Positions 3,601-59,413 of a stretch of DNA of 64,000 bases are shown here, piece after piece; the first letter of the stretch is position 1; each line of letters opens with the position of its first letter. The position numbers and the translations under genes were made by a program. The DNA is from Saccostrea echinata (Eukaryota). The notes under the pieces were generated by a model. It did not search any database and was not told where the DNA came from. It saw only the letters and a list, made by a program, of their open reading frames with translations. Where the stretch lies: the NCBI RefSeq assembly GCF_033153115.1, contig NW_026889801.1, forward strand, positions 8,804,001-8,868,000, given 5' to 3'.

Positions 3601-4292
3601 TTAGGATATTTTTTTCCCACTAAGCCGCCTTCACGCTCAATTTTTTTTTTATTTCATCAATATTAAAAGTACATGTACGTGCATTGAGAAATAGCTTAAA
3701 GATGCATCGTTCATAATTTTCTTTGAAATTGCAACTAGTTATATTATAAGAAAAATGATTACGTCAATTTAGTATCCCATTACATCTGTATTTGACAAAT
3801 AGGTAAATATACTAATATTCTTTGGGTTAACCTTCAAAAACTCATGCAAAAATTTGTTCAACACTAGATAAAGAATGTCAGTGTGCGTTTTCTTTACAAC
3901 CATACCAATCCCGATTTCACAGGGGACATGTCATATTTTCCTATGACTTCGCGGTCTCAGTTTATTACTTACTCTTAAGTGCAGATTCTAGACGGTTTAA
4001 GTGTATACAACGCATTGTGTGCAGCCGCCTACCGCTATAATTGTTTAATTTCACAATGATGCATTCGATAAATGGGATTTTAGAAAGAAGAGAATCCTGT
4101 GATACCGTTAGTCAGGCTAAAAGGTGATTCGTAATTACATCAGACGACACTTAGTCCTGCTGCTGATGTTATCGAACTTTCCCGCTTTTTGTGAACATTT
4201 ATATCGCGAGTACAATTGGATAAAATCGGATTTCTGCTTCAATATATTAGACGACAAAGTTTCCTACGAATATTGGATAAAGGATTTCGAGA

Positions 4293-11380: not shown

Positions 11381-11657
11381 AGTGAATCAAATTCTTTACT
11401 TTAGTGAATCAAAGTCTTTACTTTAGTGAATCAAAGTCTTTACTTTAGTGATTCAAAGTCTTTACTTTAGTGATTCAAAGTCTTTACTTTAGTGATTCAA
11501 AGTCTTTACGTTAGGGAATCAAAGTCTTTACTTTAGTGAATCAAAGTCTTTACGTTAGTGAATCAAAGTCTTTACTTTAGTGAATCAAAGTCTTTACTTT
11601 AGTGAATCAAAGTCTTTACTTTAGTAAATCAAAGTCTTTACTTTAGTGAATCAAAGT
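11381..11657 (+). repeat. 22-bp minisatellite (AGTGAATCAAAGTCTTTACTTT), about 12.5 copies
   Basis: Near-perfect tandem copies read directly. Confidence 0.95.
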
Positions 11658-13288: not shown

Positions 13289-13812
13289 GTCTTTAAAATC
13301 TGAATGATCCTCTGGAGTAGATTTTTTTTTTTTTTGGTAATTATAACTGTCCTTAAATCTGAATGTTTTGTATTCTTGTTTTAGATAGAAAAGAATTCAG
13401 TACTCGCAACTGAAGAGAAATGCGAATTTATATTCATTTCTTTATTAGGCAAACAAGAAGACTTTGTATTAGAATAATACTAGTGTATTATAATTGATGA
13501 TATTTGAACTTCCGTTTATTTAAACTCATCAAGAGATTTTGAGGTGAATGTAAATCAGTAAACTTTGAATACATATGCACTAATCAATTTCTGTTGACAT
13601 GGCGTTTTCACTATTTATAAAAATAGATTATTGAAGGGGTAAGGTTGAGAGGGATTTTTATATAACTGCTGTAAATTTCTGACAGACATATGCTCAACTA
13701 TATAAGGATCTAACAGCCTCTTTCTGGCATATATGGTGTAACTAAATTAATAATTTTTAACATATCCATAACTACCATAAAGCAAATTTTACATCAATTT
13801 GAGACCAAGATG

Positions 13813-37100: not shown

Positions 37101-40100
37101 ATGCCTGATAACACTACTAACAACAGTATTTTGAATTATTTCAGGGAGGGGAGGGGGGAGGGGTAGTAAAGAAAGATACCGTGGCGGGAATTTCTGATAA
37201 CTTATAATTTTATGGTATCATCCAGTTGGGTTTACATGTAATTAAATCATATACATGTAAATACATGTAGGGGCACTATCTAGAGCGTTAAAAGCTTTTC
37301 AGCAACATCCCAAATAATTTACAGCCTTTATGACGTCACAACTGACGTATTACTAGTAACGTCATACATAATGACCTAGTCATAGTAAAAACCACAAAGT
37401 TTTTCCAGACATTTATTTCAGAAAATGTATGTAGTTGACTATTTTTCACATTTAGCGTTTTAAATGAACAATTTACTGATTTTCTAACATATTTTGTGAA
37501 ATTTATATTTTTTTATTATTACATGAATTGAATGTAAACGATTGATCTACAAATTAAGGATTATTTGATCCATCAAAATTTAAATATAAAATCAAATTTC
37601 ATATTGGCCACAGCCACGAACAACAACGATATTAAACATAAAAATTTATATCGGTAATATCTATATCTATGGGAAGTATAAAAGTTGTTCTTGACTGTGG
37701 CCACTATGAGGCGCCGTTTTGGTATTTACTGCCAAAAAGTGATATCACCTATTCGAATAAGTGATATCACCTATTCGAATAGGTGATATCACCTATTCGA
37801 ATAGGTGATATCACTCATTCAAATTGAATAGGTGATATCACCTATTCGAATAGGTGATATCACCTATTCGAATAGGTGATATCACTTATTCGAATAGGTG
37901 ATATCACCTATTCGAATAGGTGATATCACCTATTCGAAATGAATAGGTGATATCACCTATTCGAATAGGTGATATCACCTATTCGTGCTGAATAGGTGAT
38001 ATCACCTATTCAAATAAGTGATATCACCTATTCGAATAAGTGATATCACCTATTCAATTTGAATGAGTGATATCACCTATTCGAATAGGTGATATCACTT
38101 ATTCGCATTTCTTACAACAACAAATAATGAATGCTCCCTTCCTCAAGATTATCTAGATTTTCATTGGAACCAAGCAAATTCGGGCTGCGTTAGGGTCTGT
38201 AAGTCTCGTCACGTGACTCGCGAGATTTTTCGATAATATTAACTTCCAGGTACCTCACACATGGAGATGTGTATTGGGTTAAGCATGTTTATCAGTCTAG
38301 ACGAACTCCAAAAACAGCGTTTCCGGAAGTAAGAAATTGAGACTGAAAAAGACTCCGAAAATCGAGTCCGCGCATGCGCACACACACAAAAAATGGCGAT
38401 TTTTCGGCAAAAATGATGGGTCTACAAAAACTGTCCGTGCAAAGTTTTGGAAAGTATGGCAATTATATCAGTACTCAGAAATGCTAAATAAAAGACTTCG
38501 GAAGAGATCGTATTTGTCAGATTTTTGATTTTATTTGCAAAAAAGGAGATATTTACTTTCAAAGTTAACGTTTCAAGTCAGATCAATTACAGAGAAAATT
38601 ATACGTTTTGAGAAGTAAATATGCATAATAAAAGGGATATATATGCAAAATGGGACAATATATATTGTAACTGTTAAAAACTTGACTGAATTTTACACAT
38701 AAATTAGCATTCTGGTTTTTTATTTGTGTACGACATCTGAATTGAACGCGTAAGTTTTTACCATCGTCATTTACTGATATACGAACATATATTATTATGA
38801 AAACATTTTTAAAACTATTATCTATCAATATGAAGACTTTAAAAACCACTCTTTTGGATATATTAAGGGCACAACATGTCTTCTAAAAATGAACCCGTTA
38901 ATATCTCTGCTCCGTGGTGAAAAATGCGCATTTTCTGATTAAAATGAATACAAGTTGCGTGTCTTCAAAAACAAATAAAATTAAGCACCTTTATTGTAGG
39001 AACGACATAAAATTTAAATCAAGGAGACAATAAATTAAATAAGAAAATATTTCTTACCGGCAGTATTAAATTCGATGTCGTATATCCAATTCACTATTAT
39101 GCAAGAGTTTGAAGCAATAAATAAGTCAATTTTCACAAAATAATTTAATAAATGCAATTATCCATTCAACAAAAAATAAAATAAAGTAATAATGCACTAA
39201 ATCCACAATTATGCAGCCGTATATTTGGAGAAAGCGAACGACAATCCATCGTTTGTTTATATCGGACGCCATTTTGCCGCAATGCATGATGGAGCCAAAG
39301 ACTTCGTTTTCGGAGTTCACGCTGTTTTTGGAGTTCGTCTAGACTGTTTATGGTTTACACAAAGCGTATAAGGAAAGTTTAAGCAGTTGTACAAAGCCGG
39401 AGGGTTCTCCGACTTACGATGGATAAATTGAGGGTCGTAAAAGCTTGGGTGCGAGCAAGTAGGAGGAGAATTTCGATCGAAGTACAGGTAAACAAGTCAG
39501 AGAATGTCACCTGCTTCTTGGGTATTCTTGGGTGAAATAGAAGTCTTATATTATACATTTGTATCTGAATAGAATAGTTTTGTTATCATCATTCCAACTA
39601 ATTTATTAACAGATTTTTCTTGAATTCGAGGATAATGATGTTATTACCAGCTGATTAAGGAGGAGTAGTGTAAGTGTCAGATGGGTACGAACGTCATCTT
39701 GTGACAGCATCACCTTTGTTTGGGTAAATAATTTGTTCAGAATACGCTTCATTTATCAACAAAAATTTAGCTGTTGCATGTCAGTAGGTCTAGTTTTTTA
39801 AGTATTCAATGTTTGAAAGCACTTATCAGGTCCAGTACAATCTTTTGATTTAGCTATATATATAGCTTTATTAAGCTGTTCAGAATAGCTTAATTTAGCT
39901 ATTTTATCACACTTTTTCTTAAATGTATACTTTTCTCAGCATGCACAAAAAGTCGCACCTTGCATAGGCACTCCCCAGCTTAATTGTTAAAAAATATATA
40001 TCTACTATACTATAAAGATAGTATAGTAGATATATATTTTTTAACAATTAAGCTGGGGAGTGCCTATGGCACCTTGGTGCAGTGATGATACTCAACCTTG

Positions 40101-43100
40101 AACTCATCTGAAATTGATGCTTTTAAAACTCACTCATTAAAATCTCCTTGCATACATGTGATAATTTTTAGGCCCAAATACTGTACAGCAGTCCTCAAAA
40201 TACAGGAATTTGGGTGAAAATGCTGTACATTGTTCATCAAAACTAAACAAAAAACTGTAAAAAAAAAATATTGACCAAAAGTCAATGTAAGAGGTTCATT
40301 TTTTAAGCTCTTCAGAGCCAAAGGCCCAAAGAGCTAATGCTATGGCCATTTGTGCGGTGTGCGTAAACTTTTTAGAATATGGGCCATAACTCAAGAACCC
40401 TTTGGCCAATTATTGTCAAATTTGTCACAGGGTATCCTTGGGCCAAGGGCTTCCGTTTATACTAAAACTAGGGTTGTGACCCTTAAACAAGTGGAGATAA
40501 TTAGGAAAATAGAAACAAAAGAGACTTTGTACTCTAAGTTCTAAAAGTTTTTGGGCTACATATGCAATTGATACAGATACTTCTTCAATGAATTTATAAA
40601 GGAGGCCAATTATGGTCAACAAGATAATTGATTAATTCAGTACATTCAATGAGAAGCAATCATACTTATCCATGCCTCAATGCACACAAGATAGTGGACA
40701 GTTACTCAAATAATAGAAATTTATCTTTTGCTTAAAAGTAATCAAAAGTTGCAAAGTTGGAGCTATTGATTTTGCTTGTTGTTTCGATAGCCCATAGCAC
40801 ATATATGAATAGTCAAATACATGCAACTTTTTGTCTATTTCTTACCAAAATAATTTTGGTGAAAAACTGCATATAAATAGCTAAATCAAGCTATTTTGAA
40901 TAGCTTAATAAAGCTAAATGGCTATTTCAAGCTATATAGCTAAATTAAGAGATTGTACTAGACCTGCTTATTTCCCAATCCCAACGATAAAACTTTCTTT
41001 ATATATTCTGCAAATTCTCTCTGCATCTATCATTGAACAAAATTCATATGACTGCAATTATATGACCATATTCTTCAGTTTAGAGAGCATGTTATAGAGG
41101 ATATTTTGGTTAAAGTTCTGGTCTGTTTCATGCAGTGTTTGAAATATTCTTTCATCTTACACAATTGTATACATTAAGATTTATTTTATAGCTAAAGTAC
41201 AAGAGAACTGCAGCATCTAAGACTACATGTACATCGACTTTGAATAATCTACCCGGTATATCCTCAAAAAGGCAACTCAAATACAGGTATGAAATTGATG
41301 TCACAAAATAAGTTTTTGGACTTACATTTACTCTTATAATTCATATACATATAAAGCATATAAAAAATAAAAATAGAAAAGATCGAATTAAAGGTTCATC
41401 AGGTGACAGCTCAATCATGTATGGAATATTATTAGGCCAAATAAAAAATATGTGTGGTTCCCAGTACCTGACCGTCTCTATTTTAGATCCCCGACCCTAA
41501 ACTTTTTTTCGGCAATATTCATATTTATTTTCCAGAATTTTCCACGATTTCCGTCATCCACTTCGGTATTAGTTTTAGTTCCAGCAATGGCAGCCTCCAT
41601 GCAAAAATCGTTTCAACATGTAGTGCAAGTGTTTGATGGTGTTAAATCTAAAGCAAGCTAGCATGGCGTGGCAATATACCTTTTTCCAGCGCCATGTTTT
41701 TTTGTTTGTTTGTTTTTTGGTTGCCAAAATTAAATAAATATGCCCAAGAGTGGCGAGATTCAGTTAGTTGCTCTGTTTACAGCTGGTTTATAACAAGTGC
41801 ATGCTGATTAGCCCCTTTATTATTTAATGCAAGCAAAGGTGTGAAGTCAGGATAGGAAATCACTTCTCGCTTGAAAGCACACATACAGCTGGCCAGGTAA
41901 CGTTTTTTGGAGTTAGGGGGAAGATAACATGAGAAAACATTTATTTGATTGCATTGATTACGCAAGAATTAGCCCAATGTGTAAGATAGATTAACTTGTA
42001 AACTATTAAATAATTTATATCAGGATCATTTCTTTTAAACCGAAAGTAGAAAAAAAAACAGTTCATGAGGAAAAGTGAAAAAGAAGACTGCTGATTTTAC
42101 ATGAATAAAGTCAACTTGCAAAACACCAATACATATGAGAAATGAGCTTGGAAGTATGAAGTCTTCAATGAGGCAAAAAGGTTTCATAAAAGGATTTAAA
42201 ATTTTAATAATATTAAATATTTGTAATTCTGACAAATTTGAATGATTCTATGTCATCTTGCTTAGGTGATTTATTTTGTTTTAAACATTACTGTACAAAG
42301 TGTAGGTGTCACATTCTTTTCCTCCGACAGCTCTTAGCAGAACTCTCATGTCCGTTTTCTAGTTTATAGTTCAGAATTTATTATTAAGTAAAATAAGAAC
42401 TGTTCTGGATAAAAGTAATTAATTAATTTCATTTATAAACACTGATTTTAAAAAAATGATGTTCACTTTGGACTTTATTTTTTACAAAAAGAAAAGATTG
42501 TGTTTTCATTATTTTTGATTTAAAAATATTTGTTTCATATTCATAACTAGGGTGCCCCCTGCCAATGTTGACTAGTATATTTAACACCACATCAAAATGC
42601 CACTTATTTTCTCCTTCACTCTGTTCATCCACAAATAAAACATTTCTTTTCTGAACCATAGTTGGAAAAGACTGAATTCAAAATAAACAAAACATTTATT
42701 AGTTATGAGTTATATACTCAGCTCTTCACAAAATATTTCTGATTTTTCGCATTCTATAATGTACAATTTTAGATTTTATATACCTGTATAAAGACTTCCG
42801 CAGCAGATTCCGATAGAGAAATCATGATCTATATTTAAGATTTAATGTATAATGCTTAAGATATCCATTAATTTTACTTATAATATACAATTCTGAAATT
42901 AATATCGTCCTTTAAAAACAAGGATAGCACATATCATCTTCGTAAACACTTAACATTCTAAAAAAAGAAAATATAATATCCAAATAACAGTTAAATAATT
43001 CAATTTGCTCATGCTGGTTTTCTTCAAACATTGTATTTTCTAGATGAGTATGAACTCGAATGAATAGAATCGGCAAACAACTGTTTAAATACCCAAGACA

Positions 43101-46100
43101 TTTTATTCACACATTAAAGCACATATCTAATCCATATGCTTAAGAGAAAACATATCTAACACTCTACACATAAAGTAGTTCACTTATGCTAATGAAAAGA
43201 AATAGGTATTATTTAGAAAAATTTAGAAAATCATTTTGTACAAAAAAAAAAAAAAAAAAAAAAAATCCCTACCTACCCTATTTTTTTGGAGGTGTAACCG
43301 GAACCACACATATTTTTTTGTTTGGTCTTAATGCTGAGTTTCCAAATGCAAAATTGAGGATATTCGATATATTCCATACAAGTTGTCAATCATTTATTAG
43401 TGATTTATACAGAGGTTCATTTGCATATAAATGTTGATAACATTGTTTTACTGTCTTTATTAACTTGTAATACTAAATTTTATGAATTGACAAATTCATT
43501 CTTTTTAGAAAGTGCATATAATTTGGAAAAGAGACCATCAATCCACTGGGGGGTATCGCATGAAAGCAATGATTATAGAATATTGTAAGGCTGGAGGAGT
43601 TATAGTACAACAGGCAGGCAAGTAATGGTACTTTGTTCTGGAAATTTTTCGCCCCAGTTTTATTTTTCTCATTCTGCCCTCCTTACAAGTAGGTGAATTT
43701 AAAACGGGACAGATTCGAAGAAGGCAGCATATATCTTTTAAACACAAATGTGTCTGATCAAATTTGAAAAGGGCAAAATTGTTTTCAAGGGTGAAAGAGT
43801 GAATATTTTAAAAATTAGAATGGGGTGAAAATATCCAATAATACAGGTTATATGTATTAACACAGTACATATGCATTTCTCTTTTCTTTATAATGAAAAT
43901 AATTTGTTCTGTAAAAGGACAAATTTTGTTCTGATTTGTATCAAATAAATAAATATGTGCCAGATTTATTATTTTGCAGGCACCTAAGTTACCATCAGTT
44001 GTGTGTCAAGCTGTGCAAAAATTCTATGTCATGTTACAGAATCTTTCTTAAATACAGGTATATGTCTGCTCATCTGGCAATCTTAGGACATCACTGGATG
44101 GTTTTGTTTAAAAAGATTACAGAGTTAACACACACTTCCAGCATGAAGACCAGCCAGTTGCCTCACCTGTCCTGACATTGTTAAAGGTAAATGGTCCTTT
44201 CAGAAAAGGATCTGACAATGCAAAGGCTTGCTAATCAATTAAAGATTTCTATTTACTAATAGGTAATTAATTTGAATTTCTGTAGCTTAAAAATTTAATG
44301 ATATGAATTTAAAAAAAATATTTTAATCAAAATTATTTTTATTTCAGTACTTTGTGACCAGTGAAAAGACATGGCTTTAAATTACTGTATCAGAGATCAA
44401 TCCAGGTTATAAATCTGAGGAAAACAATAAAGCATCCACTTCGAGCTACTTATATCACTGCCTTAATAAGATGTCTGCATGTGTAACTAACAAAGGACAG
44501 TGACCAGTTGTAGCTATGATATCAGAGGGCATCCTGAAAAACACTCATCACTAAGAATAGAAAACTTCAAATGACTTTTGTATCAATCCTTTTGAATTTC
44601 ATCTGGCTTGGAATTTCAGTAGCCTTTAGCATCCTTCAAGCATTTCATGAAGTACATGTACCAATTTGCAGGCATAAAATGTTTGAAACAGATTGCTTGT
44701 CCCAAATAAAAAAAAAAATAATTTCTCTGCCAATTAACAGTGTCATAAGCAGTTGATTGATATCACAGTTCCACTGGCATAGTATTTGTGGTTGAATGGT
44801 GCCATTTTTAAGAAAACTTTTCACAAAAACCTGGAAAACATCAGATGGAAAGGAGCATCTACAAGAAAAACAGTTAACACTTTCTTGAATATTAACAATG
44901 ATATATCATGCCCATTTACATCCTTTATATAAACTAATTAACCTAATCATAGAGAATTATGTACGAATTTGTCCTTTTGTGTATTTATAGTGTATTAAAT
45001 TGATTTTACTAATTTATAAATATTTATGTTTTTCACAGTCATTAACATTTACAAATAGAAGTACATATAACATAAAAATATTACATGTTTAGTACGATAA
45101 CGTGAAATTGTTATACCACAAAAACCATCGCTAACCTCACCTCGGTCAGCAATGGTTTTTAAGGGGTAAGAATTTTACATCACCCAAAATAAACAAGTAA
45201 TATTTTTCTTGTCATAAAATGCATTTTAAAGAAAACATCAAGGTGAAACGAATATGCAAACTTTCTGCACAGTTAACATTTTTTATTACTGTATATACTG
45301 TTACCCGTAGTCATGCATTTTCAACCATTTGGGATGTAATGTTTGGCATACAGTATGGTAATAGTACTTGTTAACAAATGTTTTTTAAACCAATCAAATT
45401 TGACTATTTAACATGAAAGTGTATCATAACAAATTTATCTAGCATAATGGTGCTGTAAGTAACCATGGAATGTGAGCTTGTGTGAACTTGATCCTGAATT
45501 ATTAAGTTTTGATATTGTAAAAAAGAATTGTGCAGCCTAAACTTTAACTTCTACCTGATTTAAATGGAGTTCCGTCATTAACAGGTTGGAAGTTGTCACA
45601 CTCTTCATGAGTATAATAACTGGGGGATCTGCTTCATTTGCAGATACATGGATAACACATTCACTCAAAGCACTGTCCCTTTTTCAGTACCTTGTGCAGC
45701 CCTGTAATATATAATGACAAATGGAGAAAAATGCCTATTTCAAGAAAAAAAGTCTGTCTCATAATTGTAGGAGTATTGGCAAAGGGGTTTGTATGTGTAA
45801 ATGAAAAAAATGTCTTCTTCTTTGTAGAATAAAAAATGATTATTTTTTGAGTGTGTGTGACCATTTTTATTTCCGAATAGACAGGGCAGCTTATAGCCTA
45901 CAGAATGAGCTGACCATTTTTGTTTATTGTAGTAATTAAAAAAAAAAAGAATGTGTTTTCTACAAAGATCATATGTTATAGACGTGGTATTCAATTTTGT
46001 ATTCCCATGGTCGATGCATTTGGGTACATCTATTTTTTTATTTGCTTTCAATGACATCGCATTCAATATCCCAAACTCATGTATACCTGTCCAATACTCC

Positions 46101-49100
46101 AAATTATACCACTGTAAGCTAAGTCAATGCTTTAAATTTATGAAACCAATCTGTAGATAAGCGTACCTTTTGAATACAGGCGATTTTAGCATAAAAACGA
46201 TTTAATTTTCCCTTTTTGCTTAAGTATGTTGGCTAATCTTGGCCCCCTCGGAATAGCTTGTGTTTGCGTTATGTAATGAAAAAATAAAGCAATTAAACGC
46301 TATTTACCTGCATCTATCAATCCACTTTCTCCTCTTCTTTGCAACAATCGGGGATCAAAACAAACTACAAGTTTAATAATTCCACTGCGATGCTTACAAC
46401 TTAAGTAATCCATTGTCTCCAAGAACGCTCAGGTACCCGGGAGTTATAAAACGAAAGTGAAAGTCAACGAGACTTACAGACCCTTTGAATTTTCCTATAG
46501 TATACATGATAGATAAGTGTAATAAATATAATTTGTGAGCAAAACAAACAACAAATTCTACTGGGGTGCTTAAAACTAAATGCGAAGCTGTAATCCATTG
46601 TCTGCAAGAATGGTAAGTTATAAAACGAAAGTGAAAGTAAATGAGACTTAAAGCTATAGTCTTGGGAGCAGTTGTTATTTCATAAATAGTTTGAATAGGT
46701 GATATCACCTATTCAAATAAGTGATATCACCTATTCAAAATGATTAAGTGATATCACCTATTCGAATAAGTGATATCACCTATTCGAATAGGTGATATCA
46801 CCTATTTGATTTGAATAGGTGATATCACCTATTCGAATAAGTGATATCACCTATTCAAAAGGAATAAGTGATATCACCTATTTGAATGGGTGATATCACC
46901 TATTCAAATAGGTGATATCACCTATTCGAATAAGTGATATCACCTATTCGAATAGGTGATATCACCAATTCAAATCGAATAGGTGATATCACCTATTCGA
47001 ATAGGTGATATCACTTATTCGAATAGGTGATATCACCTATTCGAATAGGTGATATCACCTATTCAGAAGCTGAATAGGTGATATCACTTATTCGAATAGG
47101 TGATATCACCAATTGAATAGGTGATATCACCTATTCGAATTGGTGATATCACTTTTTGGCAGTAAATACCAAAACGGCGCCTCATAGGCCACATCTAACT
47201 TTGGGAAAATCTGTCGAAAAAACGGCATTTTTTAACGTTTTTATGAAACCGTCGCATTTTCCAACCGTCGCACGTGTTTAATGGCGCATTATATAACGAT
47301 ATAAGTTATGTATGGAAAAGAAGGATGTTGTCCTCTAATATTTAAGGTATAGTACTCTTCTTGAACCGAAACTTTATTTTTGTGAAAAACACAGGGCCAA
47401 ATATGATGGTTCGTGGCTTTAGCTCTTTCTGAATCCTCCAACATTTTTTTTTTTTTTTTGAAGTGGATAGATCCTCCCCCACCTCCCTTTTGAAAAAAAA
47501 ATCTTCGTTCTGCCATATAAAGGAGTGATATGAAATCATCAACAACACAAGTTACAGAAAAAAAATAAAATTAACAAGATACTGATATTTGAGATACCAA
47601 ACAAACTTAACGTAAATACTAACCTTGGTGAGTGTTCCTTTAGATGCTTGACTAAAGACTGGACAAAAAAGGATCCCTCCCTCTCATCCCTCATAGACAT
47701 ATACCCAGACATGGTGGAGTGTGCAATCAGAAAATCCGCCTCAGCTGACGCAAGATCCAGCTGAGGCATTCCACCAAGTGAGGACACAGGCTGGAACCCA
47801 AGGTTACTTGGAGGGCTTCCAGTGGCCATGTTCAGGGATGGATGCCTCCTTTGAATAGAAGAAAAGTAGGAAAGAAAGGGATTAAGGTTACTCATCTGGG
47901 ATGGTGAAGGCATCCTGAGTGTTGGACCAGGTTCAGAGACCTCAGATGCTTCTGTCCCATTTGGAGGTAATCTGATAATGTCAGACTCTACTGGGGTGGC
48001 TATAGGTGTTCTATGCCAAACTGTCAAAGAAAAACAAGGAATTTATACAGTCAAACCATGTTGTTTCTAACTTAATGGGACCGAAAAAACAAAAACTTTG
48101 AGATACATGCATAATTATGTACGGATTTATGATATCGAGGTTAAAATACACAGTGTTGGGACATCCATCTCATTCTGAAAATGCAGGGAATTTAAGATAT
48201 CATTAATGTTGAAGATATCAATTTCAATAGCTGCAATAATGTAGCCCTCTCCGATTTTTTTTTATCTGATATTTTCTGGAGAGGCAATAATGTAGCCCTC
48301 TCCGATTTTTTTTTTATCTGATATTTTCTGGAGAGGGCTACAATTCCACAGCATCTCTGTAATGAGTGCGGGACGGTTCACCCCTAAAGACCATTCGCGC
48401 TGAGACGTTTCGCCCTCAGACGGTTCGCGCCGAAGATCAATTAAATTAATTATGTGGCAATTATCACTTGTTAACAGCAATTATTAAATTCTTAATAACT
48501 TTTGCATTGTGTTATTTCAATCCAATCCATTGGTTCAATCAATAAAACCAATTTATATGGGATAAACTAAAGACTCAATTGACTTACTAAAGACTTGACA
48601 TACTGAAGACCTGATTGAGATAATTTTGCCTGTATGGGGGTAATATTGATAACAGATGATGCTTACCAAAATACACTTTTAGAGAATAAAAACTGAGAAT
48701 TTATCTCTATATCATGCTATATACCCCCCCCCCCCCCAGCCCATAACCATACTAAAAAAAAATTTAAAGAAATTGTCAGACCTGATTTTTTTTCTATGAA
48801 TTCCTGTTACTTAAAAAAAAGTAATTTCTAAATGACCTGATATTTTTATATGACGTGAGACAACAGCAACTCGTGATTATTTTAATGACATGATGAATTT
48901 TAAAAAATGATCTATTTTGGTATAACAGACATAGAAATAAATTAAGGTATGTCACTTGTGAAATTAGTTATATTAAAGATTTTTTGGAGAAGTATATTTT
49001 TGATAAGTACTTATATAGCATTACTCAAAATCGCAAAGAAAACTGGAGTTAGTGTGCATCCTATAGAGCAACGGTAAAATGAACTTGACCTTTTTGCACT

Positions 49101-52100
49101 TTAATTGTAACTCTTGGGTTACTCACTCTAACCTTTATCATATTTTACCAGATGTAATCATGGCATTAATTATAATCTTATTTTACGTAAAATAGTTTGA
49201 ATAATATTTATTAATAATATTAATATTGGATCTTCGCATATGTAACCACTAGTTCTCATTAACAGATTAACGCCCGTCTCATAATTCAATTCTCCTCTTT
49301 ATCTTGACAAGGAGAGTCTCTAAATTATATAGTTATAACACCTTAAGTACAAAACTGAATCCGATAATTATGTTTGCTGAATAAACATAATAATTATATC
49401 TGCACATGGATAATTATACATTTAATTATGGTATAAGCCTATTTTCAACAATTTAAACATGAAAGTTTTTTTTAGTAACTTTAGAACGTTTTTTTAATAA
49501 AGTCAATATTAACCTTATATATAAATATTTATCTTAAAACATCGTAATATATCGTTATAGACAATGTAGATTAAATTCGGCGCGAAACGTCTTAGCGCGA
49601 AAGGTCTTTGAGGGCGAATGGTCTCGGCGCGAAACATCAAAAGGGGCGATACGTCCCGTTACCTCTGTAATGGTGCAAATATATTTTTTAAATACGGGCG
49701 ACTGCAGGCAAAATAAATTGTTTTTACATTCAACTTACTTCTAAAAAGGCGAAAATTTTATTCACTGTCAACAACATAGCCCGTTAAACGCGAAAACCAG
49801 ATAAAATAAATCTGCTTTTTTACCAGTCGCTCTCATTAGAAGCCATGACAGTTCTCGCGTGATGCACTGAGACTTGCGCTAGAAAATTATAAATTACTTT
49901 GTAAAGTAGATTTTCGGGGTTACTAAATGATTGTGATGTATGGCATCACTAAATATTGATAAATAAAACGATTCCATGTGACATTTTTTCGTAAACAGCG
50001 ATATTTATGCCTAAAATAAGGTAATTCCTACAGAGATCCGCTCCCTAGAGATCCCTAGTCTCATTGGCTGTCCCAAAATAAAATCGATCAAGGTCAGTAA
50101 ACATGGCGGATAAATTCAAGTTGTGATGTTGACATACATGAAAAATAACCGATATATAGATTGTTCTGTGTATGTTTGGATTGATTTATGTTTTGCTTAA
50201 CTACATTTTTGGAGTTCAGGTAAGAAATGTGAATTAAATAGCCATTTACTGATCATTTAAGCCGAAATCCGCACCATTACGGAGATCTTAAGGAGTTGTA
50301 GCCCTCTCTCTCTCCCCCCCCCCCCCCCCCAAAAAAAAAAGGGAGAGGGCTACATTATTGCAGCTACAATTTCAACTGTACATGAGAACAAATGCCAAAT
50401 GTTTTTGGTAATTACTTTTTGTGTCCTATAAGTATGGATTAAATAAAGATTTAAGGTTTGAACACAGAACTTTTTAACTTTTCTTGCTGAATGTAGTTGA
50501 GTATAATTACCATTTTGAATCTGATATCCTTGACACGCCTGTAAAATGAAAAATTTTGGTTTTCCTGCCAGTGACTGGCACTTATCAGCACGAAACAGCG
50601 AGGTCATGCTCGTAATGTTGATGCCTCCACCACAACTCCCAAACACAGCATCTGGCTTTCCATGACTCAAGACGCAGACAACCAAGGCCCCATTATCCTG
50701 ATGGTTCCTATTTCTTACTTCTTCCAGAATTTGCAACATTCCTTCACGGCTCTGGTTGTTATGTACCAGGACATTAAAACCATAACTCTTGAAAAGCCAA
50801 TCTAGTTTGTCTGAAATTATTATGAAATACATGTACATGTATTCATTTGTACAAGATTTATGATATCTCATAATACAAAGGAAAATGGTTAACAAACCAT
50901 GTTAGCAGAATTTTTAGCGAGGATTCAAATTTGGCATAATTAGTGAGGGTTTTGAGATCTCTTAAATTGAATATCGTTAACAATTTATAAAGTATCAGTA
51001 GTTATAGCTATCTTTCTTGACATTATTAAATCGCTAAAATTGCTTCTCGCTAAAAATAAATACCAGTTTTGGGTGATAAATCGCTAATATTGCGTCTGGC
51101 TAAAAATTCCACTTATACATGAACGGTATTAGGCATATCAATAATAGGGCATATCTGTGTGTGAAAATATCCTGCTTGTTGTTGCTTCTACATGTAAATG
51201 CTCTCACCTCTGTCTACTTCTGTTCCTGTACGTGTTTGCATGTTTTCATCTGCAAAGTCCTTGTTATTGATAATGACGCATATCCCTAAAAACACACAAT
51301 TCTTATTCTTATTTCAATCTAAAAGAATGATTTAATTCTAATTGCAAAAATTCTCGTAAATGTTTTATACTTATATTTGGCAGAAATTAATTTTTGAACA
51401 AGTTAGTAAAGATTTAATTTAGCACCTTTCTTAATGTTCTTATTTATGTGCATAAATGTATGCGCAAGACATTTAGTGTTATACTTGAATTAGGGGAATT
51501 TGCTTTCTGCCCAAGGCACAAAAAAGAATACACAGTCAAATGTTATACGTTTACAGTAATCGTAAACATGCATTTCACAAGACTAGCTTTATAACCTGGA
51601 TGGCGTCCTCTGTCGTAAGCTCCCAGTCTTGAAGATCCTAAGGTGGAGAATCCACTTGGAGAACCATCTGGACTCAATGTTGTTTGTGGATTTTCACTGC
51701 CTTCCATTTCATTTGGTAGATCATTCTTATCAGCAATGTCTTCCTCACCAACCTCCTGTACAGGGATTTTATCTGGGGTACACCCTGTAGCTCCTTCATT
51801 TACAATACCTGTAACAAGAAAAACATGTATGTACATTGCAGAGACTAATGATCAGTATTGTACCATGTTCGGCTTCTAACCACATTACCAGTGACTGATA
51901 CATAAATTTTTATGTACATAATTAATAGGAGGAATGCATACTATTTTCATGATTTTTTGGGGGTGGGGTGGGGGTATGGGGTTAAAATATGAATTTAGAT
52001 TGTTCAACAATTTTAAAGGTCATATGAATTGAGATTGTTCAACAATTTTAAAGGTTTTCATCTTTCAATAGAATGGCAAGTAAATTATACAGCTATAATC

Positions 52101-54649
52101 TACAAATGTATAAACCAAGGAAATGTTTCTACCTTTGTTAAAGTCATCCAAAATTGTTTGTACTTCTTCATCTTTATAAACAGTTTTCAGACAGTGAAAA
52201 AGTTCACTGTCTGAAACTTTTTCCTCCAGCAAATCTAAAGCATCCCAAACATCTGTCACATGATCTAATGCTCTCTTCCCAACTCCAAACCTTGATAACT
52301 GCTCCTTTAGTTTTTGGAATTCAACCTTTCCCGTTTCTTCACCAACTTTAAAAAGCAGCATTCTAGAATAAGGAAGACAGTTGTTAAAATTATCAATTCT
52401 ATTTCTAAAAAAAATGAACAATACATAATTTATGCTATAATCTTACAAAAGCAACTACAATGATCAAGGAATATTAAGGACGCAGAAATGTATGACTGTG
52501 CAGTGGGGGGAGGGGGGGGGGTGTTGTCAGGATTTTCAGTTTCTGTTGGAAGGGTGGGGGCACAAACTTAATTAAATATTCTTTATTGCATAATACACCC
52601 ATATGGGTCAAGCAATACAATTCATAATAAGAAAAAAAACAAAGAACACTTAATGTATATATACAATAGGCGCAATTTAAGTAATTTACTTTTATTATAT
52701 GTTACACCAATGTGGACCTTTTATTTCTTAATTCTAATGATTGTTTTATAAAAGTGAAAACAGCCGTTATAACTTCAATTGTTGGGCTAAGTATATATTC
52801 AAGTTTCTGTATGGGTGATTTGAGATAGAATGAGGAACAATTTTCTCGCATAATCACCAGTGTGAGATTGACTTGTCCGGTGTGAGACAGCAGTGTGAGA
52901 TTTTTCTGTCTTACACTGTGTATTACTAACGTAAACATTCCGTCTTTATATAAAGAAATTGTAACAATGTTAAAAAAATATTACATATACTTAAAATGTT
53001 GTCATTTAACTTATTAAGATAAACTTATTTTCATTCAAAATATTGTCGTATTTTCACTTTTTAAATGGCACTATTTTTAGATCGCGGAAGGATTCTTCTT
53101 GAATGAATGTGTACGCTATCGGATAGATAAGTTTTTTTATTCCCAGTTTTTATCTATCTAATTAATTTACATGGACTGAAATTCATTTTATCAGTTTACA
53201 CTATGTGTAAACCATTTTCAGGTACGCTCTCTCAGATGGTGTATTTAGATTTTTAATTAGATGGAAAATTAAAAGAATATATTTTTAGCCCTATTATGGC
53301 GACATCATTGAAGGCCGTTATTTTTGGATAAAATAATGCGAGAAAAATAATCATTCATTACATACTCGTGTGGGAATAGTGAAATTCCACCTCGGGGCCA
53401 AGTTTCACGGTCTAGGACTCGGCAAAGCCTCGTCCTAGACCGTGAATCTTGTCCCCTTGGTGGAATTTCACTATCCCACACTCGTAGTAATGAATGATTC
53501 TATTAATCTAACATGGTTTTTATAAGTATATTCCTTGCTTGTATATTCAAATTACATTGTAAAAAGAAATGAAATTCATCATCAATAGCATTACATGAAG
53601 TGCATAATCTTTGTTGTCGAGGTATTTTCTTATGTCTACCAGTTTCAATCAGTAGGCAGTGGTCACTTATTCGAAACTTGGTTAGTAATTGTCTATTCTT
53701 GAAAAAATTTTCAAGCATAAGATATTCTTCCATATTAAGATTGTGTTTTATTTTACTGTACAAATACAGTTTGGAGTTAATGACAACAGAAACTCACAAT
53801 ACAATAAATGAGTTTTAATACACGTTTTATAAACTCGTTTTTGCGAGGACGTACTGATGATGCCCCCACCCCCTTCTATAGGTGCATGTTGCGTGTACGT
53901 GTGCGCATAAGTGCATGTTCCTTGCTAACCATGCGACCATGGAATTAATACATGCATATAAATTTTATAGTGTTAATCTGTACGTGTATACGGCGTATAG
54001 CGATGTAAATGATTATATGTCCTCATAAATATCAGCTGTATCATGATCAGTACAAAAGATGGAAATTTTTTTTTTTGATAAACGTAAAAATTACCTTGAT
54101 ACGTATACGTACCTAAGTACAAGTCAATGTGTTGGCCTTTACCTTCAAAATATTACATCATTCCTACTTTTTAAATGACCGAAATAACAAGACAAATATA
54201 GTCATAAACGATTAAAACTAAACAATGTAGTGTACTTTCGTTTTCGTATTTCCTGGTATTTTTTTAAACATGTTTAAGCGATAAAAATAAGTTGGGTTTT
54301 CCCATGAACAGCTGATGAATCACCTTTTTTCTAATAATAAATTTCTATTGGAAGTATCAGCTGCAACCACGCTGAGATGATTTCGACCTCCGTTTAATAT
54401 TCTAACAATATCGTTTCTCTGCATCAGTGTAAATGCATCCAATAAAAACGAGAAGTCCCCGCCCTTGCACTGGATCACCATTTTCTCTTCTAGTGCTAAA
54501 AATAATTCCAGGCTGTTCTTCATTTCTTGTCTCTTTCTGTTGCTGATGAAGTCTTTGGAGAGAAAAGACAGACTTCTAAAATCTTCCCTTCCTATCTTCT
54601 CTCCAATTTCTGCTAAGACACAGCGTTCGCCAACACACTCATCCATCAT
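34172..54649 (-). CDS. CASP8: Caspase-8-like initiator caspase (2 DED + p20/p10), 565 aa, 7 coding exons
   Basis: Exons 54649-54324 (DED1), 52362-52133 (DED2), 51808-51596, 51285-51208 (GICVIINNKDF..RTGTEVD), 50810-50511 (VLSHG; KPKFFILQACQG), 48020-47624 (linker; ADFLIAHSTMSGYMSMR..GSFFVQSL) and 34325-34172 (EDVVSILTEVNKEVS..QMPEPKLRLTKKFYL..stop). All GT-AG and phase-consistent, 1698 nt. Orthology versus a lineage-specific paralog is not established. Confidence 0.9.
36573..36916 (+). mobile_element. Full-length young tRNA-derived SINE (Meta + Deu/Nin domains; BivaMD-like)
   Basis: A box TAGCTCAGTCGG, B box GAGTTCGAATC, Meta-like GTCGTTAAAAAATGGGTAGCAACTGTTCCTTCGCC..CTCGGCA, Deu-like GGATGAGAC..AAACCGAGGCCCC..TAAAGATCCC, (CAAT)n tail, 11-bp TSD CATAAAAAAGG (36562-36572; 36917-36927). 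Confidence 0.9.
37739..38105. repeat. Left subterminal array, 22-bp unit GTGATATCAC-CTATTCGAATAG
   Basis: About 16 tandem units; each half is a perfect palindrome. Confidence 0.95.
38293..39346. mobile_element. Nested non-autonomous TIR element with 28-bp perfect TIR and 5-bp TSD TTTAT
   Basis: CAGTCTAGACGAACTCCAAAAACAGCGT at 38293-38320 and its reverse complement at 39319-39346; TTTAT on both flanks. Confidence 0.85.
39963..40068. mobile_element. 106-bp perfect hairpin MITE with 8-bp TSD (P-element-type CAT..ATG ends)
   Basis: 51-bp perfect arms, 4-nt loop AAAG; GCACCTTG at 39955-39962 and 40069-40076. Confidence 0.9.
40300..40625 (+). mobile_element. Short Helentron-associated element nested in the CAGG..CCTG element
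   Basis: T-run followed by AGCTCTTCAGAGCCAAAGGCCCAAAGAGCT hairpin, short TGCG repeats and a degenerate satellite unit. Confidence 0.5.
41435..43327. mobile_element. Nested Zator/Harbinger-type non-autonomous element with TTA TSD
   Basis: TTA|GGCCAAATAAAAAATATGTGTGGTTCC ... GGAACCACACATATTTTTTTGTTTGGTC|TTA. Confidence 0.75.
46693..47152. repeat. Right subterminal array of the same 22-bp double-palindrome unit
   Basis: About 20 tandem units ending in the 34-bp TIR. Confidence 0.95.
48228..50366. mobile_element. Academ-type non-autonomous transposon (TAG..CTA ends, 3-bp TSD CAA)
   Basis: TAGCTGCAATAATGTAGCCCTCTCC pairs with GGAGAGGGCTACATTATTGCAGCTA; CAA at 48225-48227 and 50367-50369; an inner inverted segment GAGGGCTACAA..TAATGGTGC is also paired. 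Confidence 0.8.
48365..49663. mobile_element. MULE/Mutator-type non-autonomous element with 9-10-bp TSD
   Basis: Ends carry short tandem TTCGCGC/GCGCGAA repeats in inverted orientation (CGGGACG..CGTCCCG); (C)TCTGTAATG at 48356-48364 and 49664-49672. Confidence 0.8.
53346..53504. mobile_element. Palindromic MITE-like element, about 160 bp
   Basis: AATCATTCATTAC..ATAGTGAAATTCCACC..TTCACGGTCTAGGAC is mirrored around a central CTCGGCAAAGCCTC. Confidence 0.75.
53503..53770 (-). mobile_element. Non-LTR retrotransposon ORF2 C-terminal fragment
   Basis: KFRISDHCLLIETGRH..RQQRLCTSC..IDDEFHFFLQC is the Cys/His motif seen downstream of RT in invertebrate LINEs. It lies in caspase intron 1. Confidence 0.75.
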
Positions 54650-56692
54650 GCACCTATCACGGTCGATTGTGATTTGTACGATGTGTGATGTAAACAACAT
54701 TAGGCTATACAGTTTATTTCAGTCTGTTGTGCAATACTTGAAACGGAAGCAAATTTAGAACAAGTTGATGGGGTTTGTTCCGGAAATGTAAAAAGATATT
54801 GAGTTTTTTTTTTTTTACATATCAGTATATTGCATTAATATTGAAGTTTTTTAAAAATATAAATATTGATACCTATTCCATCGGGAGCAAGCCCCTATTC
54901 ATGTAGCTGTGATCGATATAGAGAGAGGGGATTTGGGGACAGAGATCTCATCAGGGAAGTGTATGCTATTAATAAATTTAATATGTTAGTATGAATATAT
55001 CCCTATAATCTCTTAAAATCACGGGCGTAGTTAGTATGTATAGGTCCCTGATAAAATCAATGAAAATTGTACATAATCTCTGCATGTGTAAATAGTTATT
55101 GATGATGAGGAATTTCAACTCCTTTAAATATAGTATATATTTAACTACAACACCAGCATATATCATGTATATATTATGTATATCTTACATATGCCCATGT
55201 ACTTGTACGTACTTACTATATTTTGTTCCAACTTGAAAAAAAGGTATTTGAAATCTTAATTGTGAAAAGTGCTAGAAACGTTAAAAATTCAAATTAAAAA
55301 AATGAGTCTGAAGTTTCCCACATTACCTTAATTTGATCTTTTTTTTTCTTTTGCAAGAAACCGTCCCAGTATGTTGTAGCCCTCCCCCCCCCCCCCCCCC
55401 GGCCACTTTTAATGGGAAAAAATCCTTTACCAGCTGCGATAAATATTAGATAAAACTGATTAAAATTACTTATATTTCATTTGGCTAAAAGATTCTGGAA
55501 GGGAGTTCCAGAGATTAGTCCATAAATGTTGCTTTTTGTAAGATAACAGGTTTTGTGAATGAAAGTAAGGCCTAATACACATGTTTGTTCGTGAATACAA
55601 CATTGAATTCGAACGCATTCTTCCGCAAGTGTCTTTATAGAAAAAAACTGTTTTGATTTTATACTGGAGGAGTTTTTGTTTTTTGTAATTATTGCTGACG
55701 AACCGTAATACTCTATCCTGATTTTTGTTCCGTTTCGCTTGTGTCTCATTCGATCGCCATAGAAGCAATATACAAAATATTGAAATCTTATAACTATTAT
55801 TAGACAGAACAAAGTATGATTATTAATTTGCCTATAACCTTATTAGATGAACTCAGTTCTTTTAAATTTGGTTGCAGTGGCATGATTTTCTCCACACTTA
55901 CAACGCAGATTTCAGATTGTAAAATGTCAAACTGGCAAAGGACAGAAAGTTTTGACCGTTATAAAGTGTGCGTTGTCAATAGAAACTGGGCACGTATATA
56001 CAGATTATTATAAGCTGATTTAGGCCATCGTTGAAAAACTGTCCTAGGAGCTTGTGATGAATTTTAATAAATAAAATTTGTTACCATTTCAATATCATAT
56101 CTCTACACTTCATTTTGTTAATTAATATCTACACGAGTTTATAAAAATACCAATAAATCATTACAATTTTCAATTCTAATTCTTGATGCAACTATTAATT
56201 GATCTTTTCATATTTGGATTCTGGGGTGAGACATCTGAGTTCAATGAAATCGTCGTAGCAGTGAAACACAGCCTCCAGACCTTGCAATGGACATCAATTT
56301 TAATCTTAAAAAGTGAAGTCCCAAACGTATATATATATATGTAGTTTCACTTTAATTTATCAAACATTAATACAACCACTGTAATTCATGAGATCCAATT
56401 AATTCATTAATTTTATAATAATTATAATAACGTCAAAGCGGCCAGTCTACTTCTTAGCATGTAGGTATAAAAATGGGACAAAGCTATGCACCTTTCAAGT
56501 CTTCAGGCAAACCAAAATAATTCCATATAAAGTTATAATATAACAAATCACTTCTCCGTAGAAACTCAGTTTATTAACAAAATGGAAAATGTTATTAAGC
56601 ACTGCTAAGGCGGAATTTCCCAATTTCAAAACGCATTTATAATTATTCTCAAAGAGTATCACAGTTATCATTCCGAACGTTTTATAATACTC

Positions 56693-59225
56693 TCAGTCAA
56701 ACTTAACCCGCACTGTTCCCTTGATCTCCTTTCTGCACATGGGGCACTTTCTGAGTGCAGGGGAGCACTGGCCACAACTGACCAAGTGACCACAAGGAAG
56801 AAAAACAATGGAGACTTTCTCTATACAACACATTTTGCATAGTGTTCGTTCTCTTAAGTCTTCGTTTCTTTCTTTGAGCCTTTCCATATCTGATAAAAAA
56901 AAAAACAGCGTGCTTGGTATACTTTACACGTACTTATCACAAACAGCGATATAAAATTATGTCTCTGTCACAAATTAATTTTGGTAATTCTCAAGGAAAG
57001 TCATTCTAAACAAAACATACCTCCTGTAAGACATCCGTTTCCTGTTTCCGGTTCCTGGCTATTGGATGAGTCGGAGTCTGCGCTGTCCTGTTCTATCTCT
57101 GTCAGAACGTCAACAATATCCTCTGCCGTCATTGTCTGCCATGCTGAAAGAGAAACACTGTCACATGAAGCAATTGTGATTTCACATTTGAACGAAAGCT
57201 TAGATTTTACAACAATATTCCTTTTTTTTTTTCATGGACAGGTCCAGCATGTGGACGTCCGGATACCAGTCAGGATTTACAATGATATTATCATAGAAAA
57301 TAATCTGAAAATGACTTTGGGATACCCTATTCAGCCAAATTGGACCCGTCCTAAAGTCTGAGGAAAAAGATTAGGTATACGAATTGAAGTCCACACCTCT
57401 TAAAACTGAAATATGTTAATCAAATTTAACTGTTTCCCATTTAGTCACTAGAATTTAGTTGTTTATCTATGCATTAAAGAGCTTTAACCTAAAAACTGGG
57501 AAACAGAAAAATTCAATCAGAATCAAGAGATCTTACTTTTCGTTTGAAGAACAACATCTATTGCTCGTTTGACTTGTTTGGGTAGGAATCCCATGTTTAG
57601 CACGGCTTGGGCAGCATCCGTTAATAGTGGATTTTTCTCCAATGTTTTCTCGGGGTATTCCTCAGCAGTCTTAGGGTTACTGGGTTTGACATCTGTGAAA
57701 TGTATCAAGTCGGGTTTTTAAATATATAAATTTTTTTTTCAAAATCAAAATTTCATTATAATAAGCTTTTATAAGCTCAGCTATACGTATATTTAATGAA
57801 TATGAAATTTTACGTTTTATAATGAGCTATACATGTACCTGAAACGTCTTCTGCAACTCTGGAGGGTATTGCAAGTGGTACATTCGGTTGATTTATTATC
57901 TGTTACAAAAACAAAACACAATATTTTCATAATATTCCTTAGCCTATAAGTATAACTGTGTTTGTTCGACATAATTGTCTTTGCTGCATGATTTGTAAAT
58001 TCAAAATGAACAAAATTCTATATGCACGAACCTTACATTATTTGAGATTATATATATATATATGTAATATTGATACCCACCTCTTGCTCCTGTTCTCTCT
58101 CCTGCACAGCACGTTCTACGTCATCCAAGAATTGAGGATTCCTCATCAGTCGTACGTAAGCACATCTAGGAGACCATCGCGCATGCTCGACCCAGGGGTC
58201 ATCTTCTGCCGCCCAATTGCGGACCCCAATTCCACAACAAAAGCAGCGAACCCAATCACTGAATGCTGAAATTGAAAAAAAATATGATAACAGGAGACCA
58301 AAATTTTTAAAATAAAGTTTATATGATGACACCTGAATTTCAAATATTGGTGATCTGAAGAAGAAAACCTCATTACAGGAAGCAAAAGGACAACAAAGTT
58401 GGTGACTTGAACACGAATTTTGAAAGCCCACTTACAAGTATAGAAAAATCCAGCATTAGCCATTTGGTGACTGGTTTGGGTCAAATGAGCGGGCCAATGC
58501 TTGAAAGAGTCTAGTCGGCTTTGTTCGTCGGCATATTCTGGATATTTGCACTCTGTGCCTAAAGAACCAGAGGGTACATTTGCACCTAAAGACACATTGA
58601 ACCCTGACGACACATTAAAGCCTGGAGACACATTAAAGTCTTCTCTGAGTTCTGAAAGTTTTGAAGCAATAAGACTAGGAGTCCGTTGAGGGGTGATGGG
58701 GATCCGACATGGGGTAATAGGAATCTGTTGTGGGGTGTTAGGGGTCCATTGTGGGGGCTTGTAATCGGCAAATAACATATTGTCACTAACAGAATCAGTT
58801 TCTGACAGGGATGCAAGAGAACATGATTCTGAAGAAGGTCTGCTACAAGGATTCGATGAAATTGATGATAAAAAATCCGTGGAAATTGATGACAAATGTG
58901 AGGAAGTCGATGACACAACTGATGAAGTTTGAGTTTCTCCGTCATGTTCTAAATCGTCTTCACAAATTGATAAGTCTGATGTAAAAATTGATGACAGATG
59001 ACTGCTCGTTTCATCATCGCCTCTAGATGACGCACTATAGCGACTGATATTCGAATCTAGTCTGAGTGCGAAATATTCGGAATTGGACCGACAGTCATCG
59101 TCTTCTGACACTTGCACTGCCGTTCCCTCACTGAGAGATTGGGGTTCAGGGACCTGGAAGGCCGGGGGAGGGACCGAGACCTGCTGAGGGCGGGACCTCA
59201 TCCCCGTATTATCTTTACGATCCAT
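56693..59225 (-). CDS. Inhibitor of apoptosis protein (BIRC7/IAP-like): Ser-rich N-terminus, single BIR, UBA-like, C-terminal RING; 503 aa, 6 coding exons
   Basis: Exons 59225-58436, 58265-58081, 57899-57839, 57692-57537, 57143-57021 and 56889-56693 are GT-AG and phase-consistent (1512 nt). BIR: RLDSFKHWP..MANAGFFYT..VRCFCC-x16-H-x6-C. UBA-like: AVLNMGF..VKRAI. RING: CKMC..FLPCGHLVSCGQC..CPMCR. Confidence 0.93.
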
Positions 59226-59413
59226 TAAAATCTACAAAAAGTATGATATATTAAACATAGGGCTGTGTATCCTCCGAATATACATGTATCATGATATAAT
59301 TTACCTCTGGCTTTTACATGCGAATTGGTTAGAAAAAAAAATATTTAAAAAAGTCTATATACGATATTTTTATATCGTATAATCTATGTCACAATGACAC
59401 GTCAAAAAAATTT

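What the first reader, a model, noticed from the sequence alone, without database searches (positions are those of the whole stretch)
37699..47192. 9.5-kb IS3EU-type transposon with intact ends inside the last caspase-8 intron
Seen: perfect 34-bp TIRs beginning TAT, an exact 6-bp TSD GGCCAC and 370-460-bp subterminal arrays. Known: TAY..RTA ends with 6-bp TSDs define the little-studied IS3EU superfamily. Inference: the ends are pristine while the interior is decayed and invaded by at least five other elements. This suggests recent mobilisation in trans as a composite cargo carrier, and the insertion may be polymorphic. It separates the exon encoding the C-terminal part of the p10 subunit from the rest of the gene.
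Basis: partly seen in the sequence, partly recalled or inferred. Interest (0 to 1): 0.72.

Follow-up and report, generated by a model that had tools for sequence, protein, structure and literature searches.

The report
IS3EU transposon carrying a dead ISL2EU
This is a real oyster jumping gene whose outer ends belong to the IS3EU family and whose body is a whole dead transposon of another family (ISL2EU); the pair has spread as one unit to an estimated 70 places, likely moved by a helper copy's enzyme, and this copy sits in an intron of a caspase-8-like gene with no effect on that gene shown.

Summary
Confirmed and extended. The 9,482-bp element (37705-47186) has 45-bp perfect inverted ends, palindromic 22-bp arrays and a true 6-bp duplication; 51 of 54 other closed copies also have one. 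It encodes no working protein. One 29-kb copy with the same ends carries an IS3EU-type DDE transposase and a convergent HECT ligase gene. That transposase is frameshifted in the assembly but spliced and one base shorter there (open frame) in contigs from two studies: the likely helper. New here: the interior (38192-46484) is a whole decayed ISL2EU transposon (THAP-DDE and SWIM-YqaJ remnants) with its own intact ends. All 38 shell-bearing copies form one clade inside 17 free copies, so it was captured once, then gained passengers stepwise; about 70 copies are estimated. The interior is still spliced. The window copy is recent but not the youngest, and lies in a repeat within a 13.3-kb caspase intron that is 97% repeat. 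Polymorphism and any effect on the gene are untested. The scan had noted the IS3EU-HECT pairing in other genomes, but not this composite.

The parts
37705..47186 (.). Whole non-autonomous IS3EU composite element, 9,482 bp, subfamily A (about 8.3 kb without private inserts)
37699..37704 (.). Left copy of 6-bp target-site duplication GGCCAC
   Evidence: single copy at the empty site in 7 of 7 host-repeat paralogues
47187..47192 (.). Right copy of the TSD
37705..37749 (+). Left IS3EU terminal inverted repeat (45 bp perfect, begins TAT)
47142..47186 (-). Right IS3EU terminal inverted repeat
37739..38105 (.). Left subterminal array, 16 palindromic 22-bp units; likely transposase-binding sites (inferred); also present in the transposase-bearing partner
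46693..47152 (.). Right subterminal array, 20 units
46485..46692 (.). Right shell segment shared with 1.0-1.2-kb short shells; holds an older relic copy of an ISL2EU end (about 46540-46653, 70-75% identical)
38192..46484 (.). Captured decayed ISL2EU (PHIS) transposon with perfect 18-bp ends AGGG...CCCT
44371..46369 (-). Remnant of the ISL2EU THAP-DDE transposase gene (THAP 46307-46369, DDE 44371-44854); splice joints at 45702-46307 and 44859-45554; broken by stops and frameshifts
39352..44400 (+). Remnant of the ISL2EU SWIM-YqaJ gene; spliced exons 39352-39487, 39613-39723, 41192-41286, 43509-43617, 44058-44186, 44348 onward; one contig joins it to shell sequence from 38110; no long ORF
38293..39346 (.). 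Private insert p1: 1,054 bp, 28-bp perfect inverted ends, 5-bp duplication TTTAT; absent from the 54 other copies scored
39827..40966 (.). Shared passenger a: 1.14-kb element with inverted ends and 5-bp duplication CTTAT; in shell copies, in none of 17 free ISL2EU copies
39963..40068 (.). Private insert p2: 106-bp hairpin MITE with 8-bp duplication GCACCTTG (hAT-like; label recalled)
40151..40519 (.). Shared passenger c inside a; no duplication seen; absent from the four oldest shell copies
41435..43327 (.). Shared passenger d: 1.9-kb element, GG-starting ends, 3-bp duplication TTA (Harbinger-type TWA by PMC4482050); absent from L120 and L136, scored 0.25 in L128 and L067+68
34498..47428 (.). 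Host repeat (about 3.1 kb of its own sequence, class not determined) into which the element inserted; at least 40 copies
36549..36916 (+). tRNA-headed SINE-like insert in the host repeat, absent from its paralogues (SINE label by eye)
34175..34325 (-). Last coding exon of the caspase-8-like gene (end of the caspase domain)
47624..54718 (-). Upstream part of the caspase-8-like gene: penultimate exon from 47624, QACQG stretch within 50353-50901, DED hits at 52068-52442 and 54323-54718

Best explanation
The element is a non-autonomous IS3EU transposon whose body is a whole dead ISL2EU transposon, and it is likely cut and pasted as one unit by the transposase of a same-ended helper element elsewhere in the genome. 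Shown: the ends, arrays, 6-bp duplications, the helper's genes, the ISL2EU remnants, one clade of composite copies, and splicing of the interior. Inferred history: a short IS3EU shell of about 1.1 kb received an ISL2EU copy once, losing about 190 bp of its middle. The composite then multiplied and gained passenger a, then c and d, and split into subfamilies A and B. One A copy landed in a young repeat in the last coding intron of a caspase-8-like gene and afterwards took two private inserts. Inferred mechanism: the helper's DD34E transposase binds the inverted ends and palindromic arrays and makes a 6-bp staggered cut. The insertion is most likely spliced out with the intron and close to neutral.
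For: 6-bp TSD in 29 of 30, 8 of 10 and 12 of 12 closed copies (6 of its 18 stretches held no second end), plus L010 and the partner: 51 of 54. Partner G000:C54:57990607-58019761 has the same left 34 bp, 2 mismatches in the right 34 bp, the same arrays, and TSD TACATA. It has rva_4 at E 6.4e-64 and HECT at E 2.5e-08. Its core motifs match IS3EU rows in the PMC10045372 supplement by eye. Contigs of runs X2 and X4 (two studies) splice its transposase and lack one base at the assembly frameshift, giving 479 aa. Interior: free copies have their own ends and 2-bp duplications. Intact relatives L143 and L146 share those ends; L146 encodes DDE_Tnp_4, THAP, SWIM and YqaJ. 5 of 13 coding stretches of L146 beat all 60 shuffles on the window interior, in order and orientation. 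All 38 shell copies form one clade, support 1.0, inside 17 free copies. Passenger content tracks distance from the window copy.
Against: Transposition by the helper was not shown. The only same-ended transposase copy in the assembly is frameshifted to 351 aa. X3 and X6 showed no contig on it. 25 of the 206 end positions were never listed. 3 of 54 closed copies lack a TSD. 8 of 13 ISL2EU coding stretches did not beat the shuffles. The inner element has no clean duplication inside the shell (TT/TT in 31 of 34 copies, with a flanking deletion). The shell-first order rests on a 206-bp midpoint-rooted tree with support 0.78-0.87. IS3EU placement was by Pfam and by eye, not by a tree with Repbase sequences.
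Confidence: 0.85

Rival explanations
1. The inner ISL2EU ends drive the spread, using the intact ISL2EU transposase.
For: The inner 18-bp ends are perfect at both sides in 23 of 34 long copies. Intact relatives L143 and L146 are 99.5% identical, so that family looks recently active.
Against: The duplications lie outside the IS3EU ends and are 6 bp long. None of 17 free copies carries passengers a, c or d.
Confidence: 0.03
2. A different IS3EU family supplies the transposase by cross-mobilisation.
For: 150 rva_4 matches were scored in G000, many without stops. An 18-kb family on C8 has ends that begin TATG and share CGCCG. The same-ended copy is frameshifted in the assembly.
Against: The C8 and C36/C5 families use different 21-bp arrays. 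The same-ended transposase is spliced and in frame in two studies.
Confidence: 0.08
3. The insertion is a functional allele that traps caspase transcripts before the last exon.
For: The dead ISL2EU transposase unit lies in the caspase orientation, and family copies use two of its minus-strand splice joints.
Against: Flanking splice sites and frame are intact. The nearest element end is 437 bp from the donor. No carrier RNA was examined, and the joints cannot be tied to this copy.
Confidence: 0.12
4. The copies are segmental duplications or uncollapsed haplotigs, not transpositions.
For: The assembly has 425 contigs. L122 and L137 share a flank, so some duplication exists.
Against: The closed composite copies have different flanks, nearly all with their own 6-bp duplication.
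Confidence: 0.01

Closest known systems
IS3EU / GingerRoot superfamily (Repbase; PMC10045372, passages and supplement passages read; PMC6839031, passages and section 17 read)
   Same: TA..TA ends and 6-bp TSD. The helper has an integrase-like DD34E core. GingerRoot elements of 4-13 kb often carry foreign DNA and then usually lack the transposase (6 of 22 keep a DDE motif).
   Different: The cargo here is a whole transposon of another superfamily, not host gene fragments, and it defines a family of about 70 copies. Subterminal arrays and a HECT gene were not found in the passages searched.
ISL2EU group of PHIS transposons (PMC4482050, passages read)
   Same: AT duplication, THAP-HTH-DDE transposase plus YqaJ gene, size near 5 kb once nested inserts are removed.
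   Different: The copy is dead and enclosed in foreign ends. Its ends begin AG in the AT register; a TA register gives GG ends and fits all 11 two-ended free copies, against 9 for AT.
Pack-MULE-type cargo carriers (as described in PMC6839031 section 17)
   Same: Non-autonomous ends moving captured DNA in trans.
   Different: Different superfamily; the cargo is transposon-derived and layered stepwise.
IS3EU elements with a convergent HECT gene
   Same: The helper here and a second family on C8 have that gene layout.
   Different: Those notes describe gene-bearing elements; none returned describes a derived non-autonomous composite.

Membership tests
IS3EU/GingerRoot | TA..TA termini with inverted repeats | tested here: met
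   TAT...ATA, 45 bp perfect; criterion from PMC10045372
IS3EU/GingerRoot | 6-bp target-site duplication | tested here: met
   Window plus 51 of 54 other closed copies; empty site 7 of 7
IS3EU/GingerRoot | IS3/IS481-like DDE transposase in a partner with the same ends | tested here: met
   rva_4 E 6.4e-64; D227, D284, E319 counted by hand in P0001; motifs match IS3EU rows by eye
IS3EU/GingerRoot | First catalytic D 100-300 residues from the start, no HHCC motif | tested here: met
   D227; no HHCC seen by eye, weak HTH hit instead
IS3EU/GingerRoot | Phylogenetic placement with Repbase IS3EU proteins | not tested
   No tree with the reference proteins was built
IS3EU/GingerRoot (autonomous status of the window copy) | Own transposase gene | tested here: not met
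   No IS3EU transposase hit in the part of the tblastn output shown (cut); only the ends match the partner; longest interior frame 127 aa
ISL2EU (interior) | THAP-HTH-DDE transposase gene | tested here: met
   Intact in same-ended L146; THAP and DDE remnants in the window beat 60 of 60 shuffles
ISL2EU (interior) | Second gene with YqaJ domain | tested here: met
   L146 YqaJ hits are weak (E 0.0035 and 0.014, below cut-off), SWIM is above cut-off; three remnants in the window beat the shuffles
ISL2EU (interior) | AT duplication, ends usually GG | tested here: inconclusive
   AT fits 9 of 11 two-ended free copies with AG ends; TA with GG ends fits 11 of 11; TT/TT inside the shell
Kolobok (considered for passenger d and the interior) | TTAA 4-bp duplication | tested here: not met
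   d duplicates TTA; the interior duplicates 2 bp; criterion from PMC9587614

The most novel reading that the evidence does not exclude
The composite is a doubly mobile element: two intact end pairs of different superfamilies, each with a live transposase in the species, so the inner part could re-emerge with its new passengers. Its shell-started spliced RNA and the convergent opposite-strand RNA would form double-stranded RNA that silences live ISL2EU, giving the IS3EU family a weapon against another transposon family and a reason to keep the cargo.
Probability: 0.1. Interest if true: 0.75.

Novelty: new variant of a known kind. Interest (0 to 1): 0.42.

Why it matters
It gives a clean, ordered case of one DNA-transposon superfamily capturing another and out-multiplying it: about 70 composite copies against roughly 20 free ones seen. 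It supplies a testable IS3EU system (helper gene expressed in two studies, matching ends, many natural substrates up to 20 kb) for a superfamily for which the searches run here found no mechanistic study. It shows how an intron of about 370 bp grew to 13.3 kb by nesting. It also warns repeat annotators that the interior would be labelled ISL2EU although IS3EU ends move it. None of this overturns a principle: nesting and cargo capture are known.

Tried and rejected
Pfam on 12 interior reading frames found nothing above cut-off. tblastx of the element against the helper gave only short noise. Exons of the interior transcripts are only slightly less diverse than introns (0.9-2.7% against 0.9-2.6%), so there is no sign of selection. 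One search used a non-coding frame by slip and served only as a copy census. Kolobok, Spy and Pangu were considered for the interior and dropped once same-ended copies with ISL2EU genes appeared. The search for a second allele of the caspase intron was swamped by the host repeat (40 of 206 candidates scored), so polymorphism is open. No run was on record as RNA; the RNA reading rests on joints at canonical splice sites. X3 and X6 had no contig on the helper transposase, which is no proof of absence. HECT was not detected by tblastn beside the C36 and C5 transposases. Literature: 'transposon + HECT + IS3EU' 0 papers; five-term HECT/transposase search 0; composite and nesting searches showed no matching case in listings (passages of PMC5718144); 'IS3EU + oyster' 3 papers; PMC8268682 lists two IS3EU-labelled satellites, of 690 and 129 bp, and no 22-bp one; the species-plus-caspase-8 listing was irrelevant. 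Repbase and Dfam were not searchable, so the family may already be catalogued there.
Full report
Observation. The element runs 37705-47186 (9,482 bp) between two copies of GGCCAC, and its ends match perfectly for 45 bp. Arrays of a self-complementary 22-bp unit follow, with 16 units on the left and 20 on the right. The element sits inside a high-copy repeat. All 7 paralogues fetched carry one GGCCAC at the site, so the duplication is real; the closest paralogue is 99.1% and 99.6% identical to the two flanks. The host gene has two DED hits (one above cut-off) and caspase-domain hits. Its last coding exon ends at 34175, and the best in-frame join gives an intron of 13,298 bp, 34326-47623. Of this, 34498-47428 (97%) is repeat, leaving about 370 bp of other intron. 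The genome is an oyster's: the database label on the identical helper protein P0001 is Saccostrea echinata.

The family. The 34-nt end has 206 exact matches, control 0; 181 positions were listed. Six-base duplications were found in 29 of 30, 8 of 10 and 12 of 12 closed copies (where 6 of 18 stretches held no second end), and in L010 and the helper. Sizes run from 193 bp to 29 kb. All 33 other long copies fetched apart from the helper share the window's interior. An interior segment matches 73 places at E below 1e-10, two of them known free copies, so about 70 composite copies are estimated and 38 were verified. Among 26 aligned copies there are two subfamilies. A is about 8.3 kb and includes the window. 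B is about 9.4 kb and has two more shared inserts, with pairs only 0.09-0.11% apart. The window copy is 0.8% from its nearest sampled relative on the backbone and alone carries inserts p1 and p2 at their sites. It is recent but not the youngest.

The helper. Crossing end positions with 150 rva_4 matches gave one coincidence: G000:C54:57990607-58019761. It has the same ends and arrays and TSD TACATA, and it shares only 437 and 527 terminal bases with the window element. It encodes a four-exon transposase (rva_4 E 6.4e-64; D227, D284, E319) and a convergent gene ending in a HECT domain. The core motifs match the IS3EU rows of the PMC10045372 supplement by eye. TA..TA ends and 6-bp TSDs are that paper's criteria (passages). 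It is the only copy above 76% identity in the assembly, and a one-base frameshift stops it at 351 aa. Contigs of X2 and X4, from two studies, splice its third intron and lack one base at that spot, which reads to 479 aa. X3 and X6 showed nothing there. A working allele therefore likely exists in the species. That this protein moves the family is inferred, not shown. A second family on C8 has the same layout. Earlier scan notes report the IS3EU-HECT pairing in other genomes; two paper searches found it in no paper.

The interior. Diverged matches led to copies that share window 38191-46484 but lack the IS3EU ends. They have their own 18-bp inverted ends and a 2-bp duplication (AT in 9 of 11, or TA in 11 of 11 in the shifted register). 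Three same-ended relatives carry genes. L146 encodes THAP, HTH_Tnp_4 and DDE_Tnp_4 (E 1.2e-37), and on the other strand SWIM with weak YqaJ hits. This is the ISL2EU layout of PMC4482050 (passages). Five of 13 coding stretches of L146 hit the window interior above all 60 shuffles, in order and orientation; eight did not. Contigs from four runs laid on the interior show five plus-strand joints at canonical introns (four GT-AG, one GC-AG), and three of the runs show minus-strand joints. Three exon starts and one exon end coincide with the homology hits. One 833-nt contig joins shell sequence at 38110 to these exons, so the RNA comes from a composite copy. It skips p1, so it is not shown to come from the window copy. 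No long frame survives.

Order of events. On 3.75 kb of backbone, all 38 shell-bearing copies form one clade with support 1.0, nested among 17 free copies (rooted on the most distant free copy). Free copies are 5.8-12.7% from the window and lack a, c and d. Four old shell copies at 4.0-4.9% have a but not c, and little or none of d. Copies at 3% or less have all three, two of them partly deleted. Short shells of 1.0-1.2 kb hold about 190 bp of other sequence where the ISL2EU now lies and branch outside the composites on a weak 206-bp tree. The simplest reading is one capture into a short shell, then stepwise loading.

How it likely works. The helper transposase would recognise the outer ends and arrays and paste everything between them with a 6-bp staggered cut. 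Copies made only of ends and arrays also have 6-bp duplications, so the interior is not needed. The inner ends are perfect in 23 of 34 long copies and live-looking ISL2EU exists, yet no shell-free copy with the passengers was found among 17. In the caspase gene both splice sites and the frame are intact, so the insertion is most likely spliced out. Trapping is possible, because the dead transposase unit faces the same way, but it is untested, as is polymorphism.

Novelty and verdict. Both families are known. GingerRoot elements are known to carry gene fragments and lose their transposase (PMC6839031 section 17). I found no report of an IS3EU family built from a whole ISL2EU in listings or passages or in scan notes, but Repbase and Dfam could not be searched, and only passages of one supplement were read. 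It is a new variant of a known kind: interest 0.42.

Noticed in passing
G000:C54:57990607-58019761 (L092-L094): 29,155-bp same-ended helper: four-exon IS3EU transposase on +, and a multi-exon gene on - ending in a HECT domain with its catalytic Cys motif; TSD TACATA.
   Followed up: yes
G000:C8, about 9017560-9035643 (L156-L158): Second IS3EU family: 18,084 bp, TAT ends, TSD GTTATG, 21-bp arrays, open 465-aa transposase frame, convergent HECT-like hit.
   Followed up: partly
L150-L155 (C36, C5): Third rva_4 family between inverted 21-bp arrays 15-19 kb apart; ends and second gene not resolved.
   Followed up: partly
window 38168-38192, run X1: One contig shows 8 A-to-G changes in 25 nt; 35 of 43 genomic matches have A at all eight sites and none has G at all eight. 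Possibly A-to-I editing; one contig, no matched DNA.
   Followed up: partly
L143, L146, L147: Apparently live ISL2EU family; L143 and L146 are 99.5% identical. They carry a relative of passenger a (about 75% identical) at a different place.
   Followed up: partly
L033, L098, L107+L108, L058+L059: Three copies lack matching duplications; one has an internal duplication of about 7 kb; another has three tandem right ends. Possibly recombination between copies or assembly artefacts.
   Followed up: no
L051-L057, L161-L165, L168, L170, L172, L173, L176: Many 190-870-bp copies made only of ends and arrays, each with a 6-bp duplication, so ends plus a few units appear sufficient for movement.
   Followed up: partly
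L139+L140, 3892-7912: A retrotransposon with open reverse-transcriptase-like and tyrosine-recombinase-like frames (DIRS-type by eye) sits inside a free ISL2EU copy.
   Followed up: no
window 4281-5285 (+) and 12089-13396 (-): Two convergent single-exon rhodopsin-family GPCR frames.
   Followed up: no
window 58051-59231 (-) and 27460-29700 (-): A BIR-domain (IAP-like) gene just upstream of the caspase on the same strand, and a BTB-BACK-TRAF gene downstream.
   Followed up: no
window 11381-11657: Another 22-bp array, 12.6 units at 95% match, with a different unit; possibly the end of another transposon.
   Followed up: no
window 43618-44057: The spliced interior transcript uses a GC-AG intron.
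   Followed up: no
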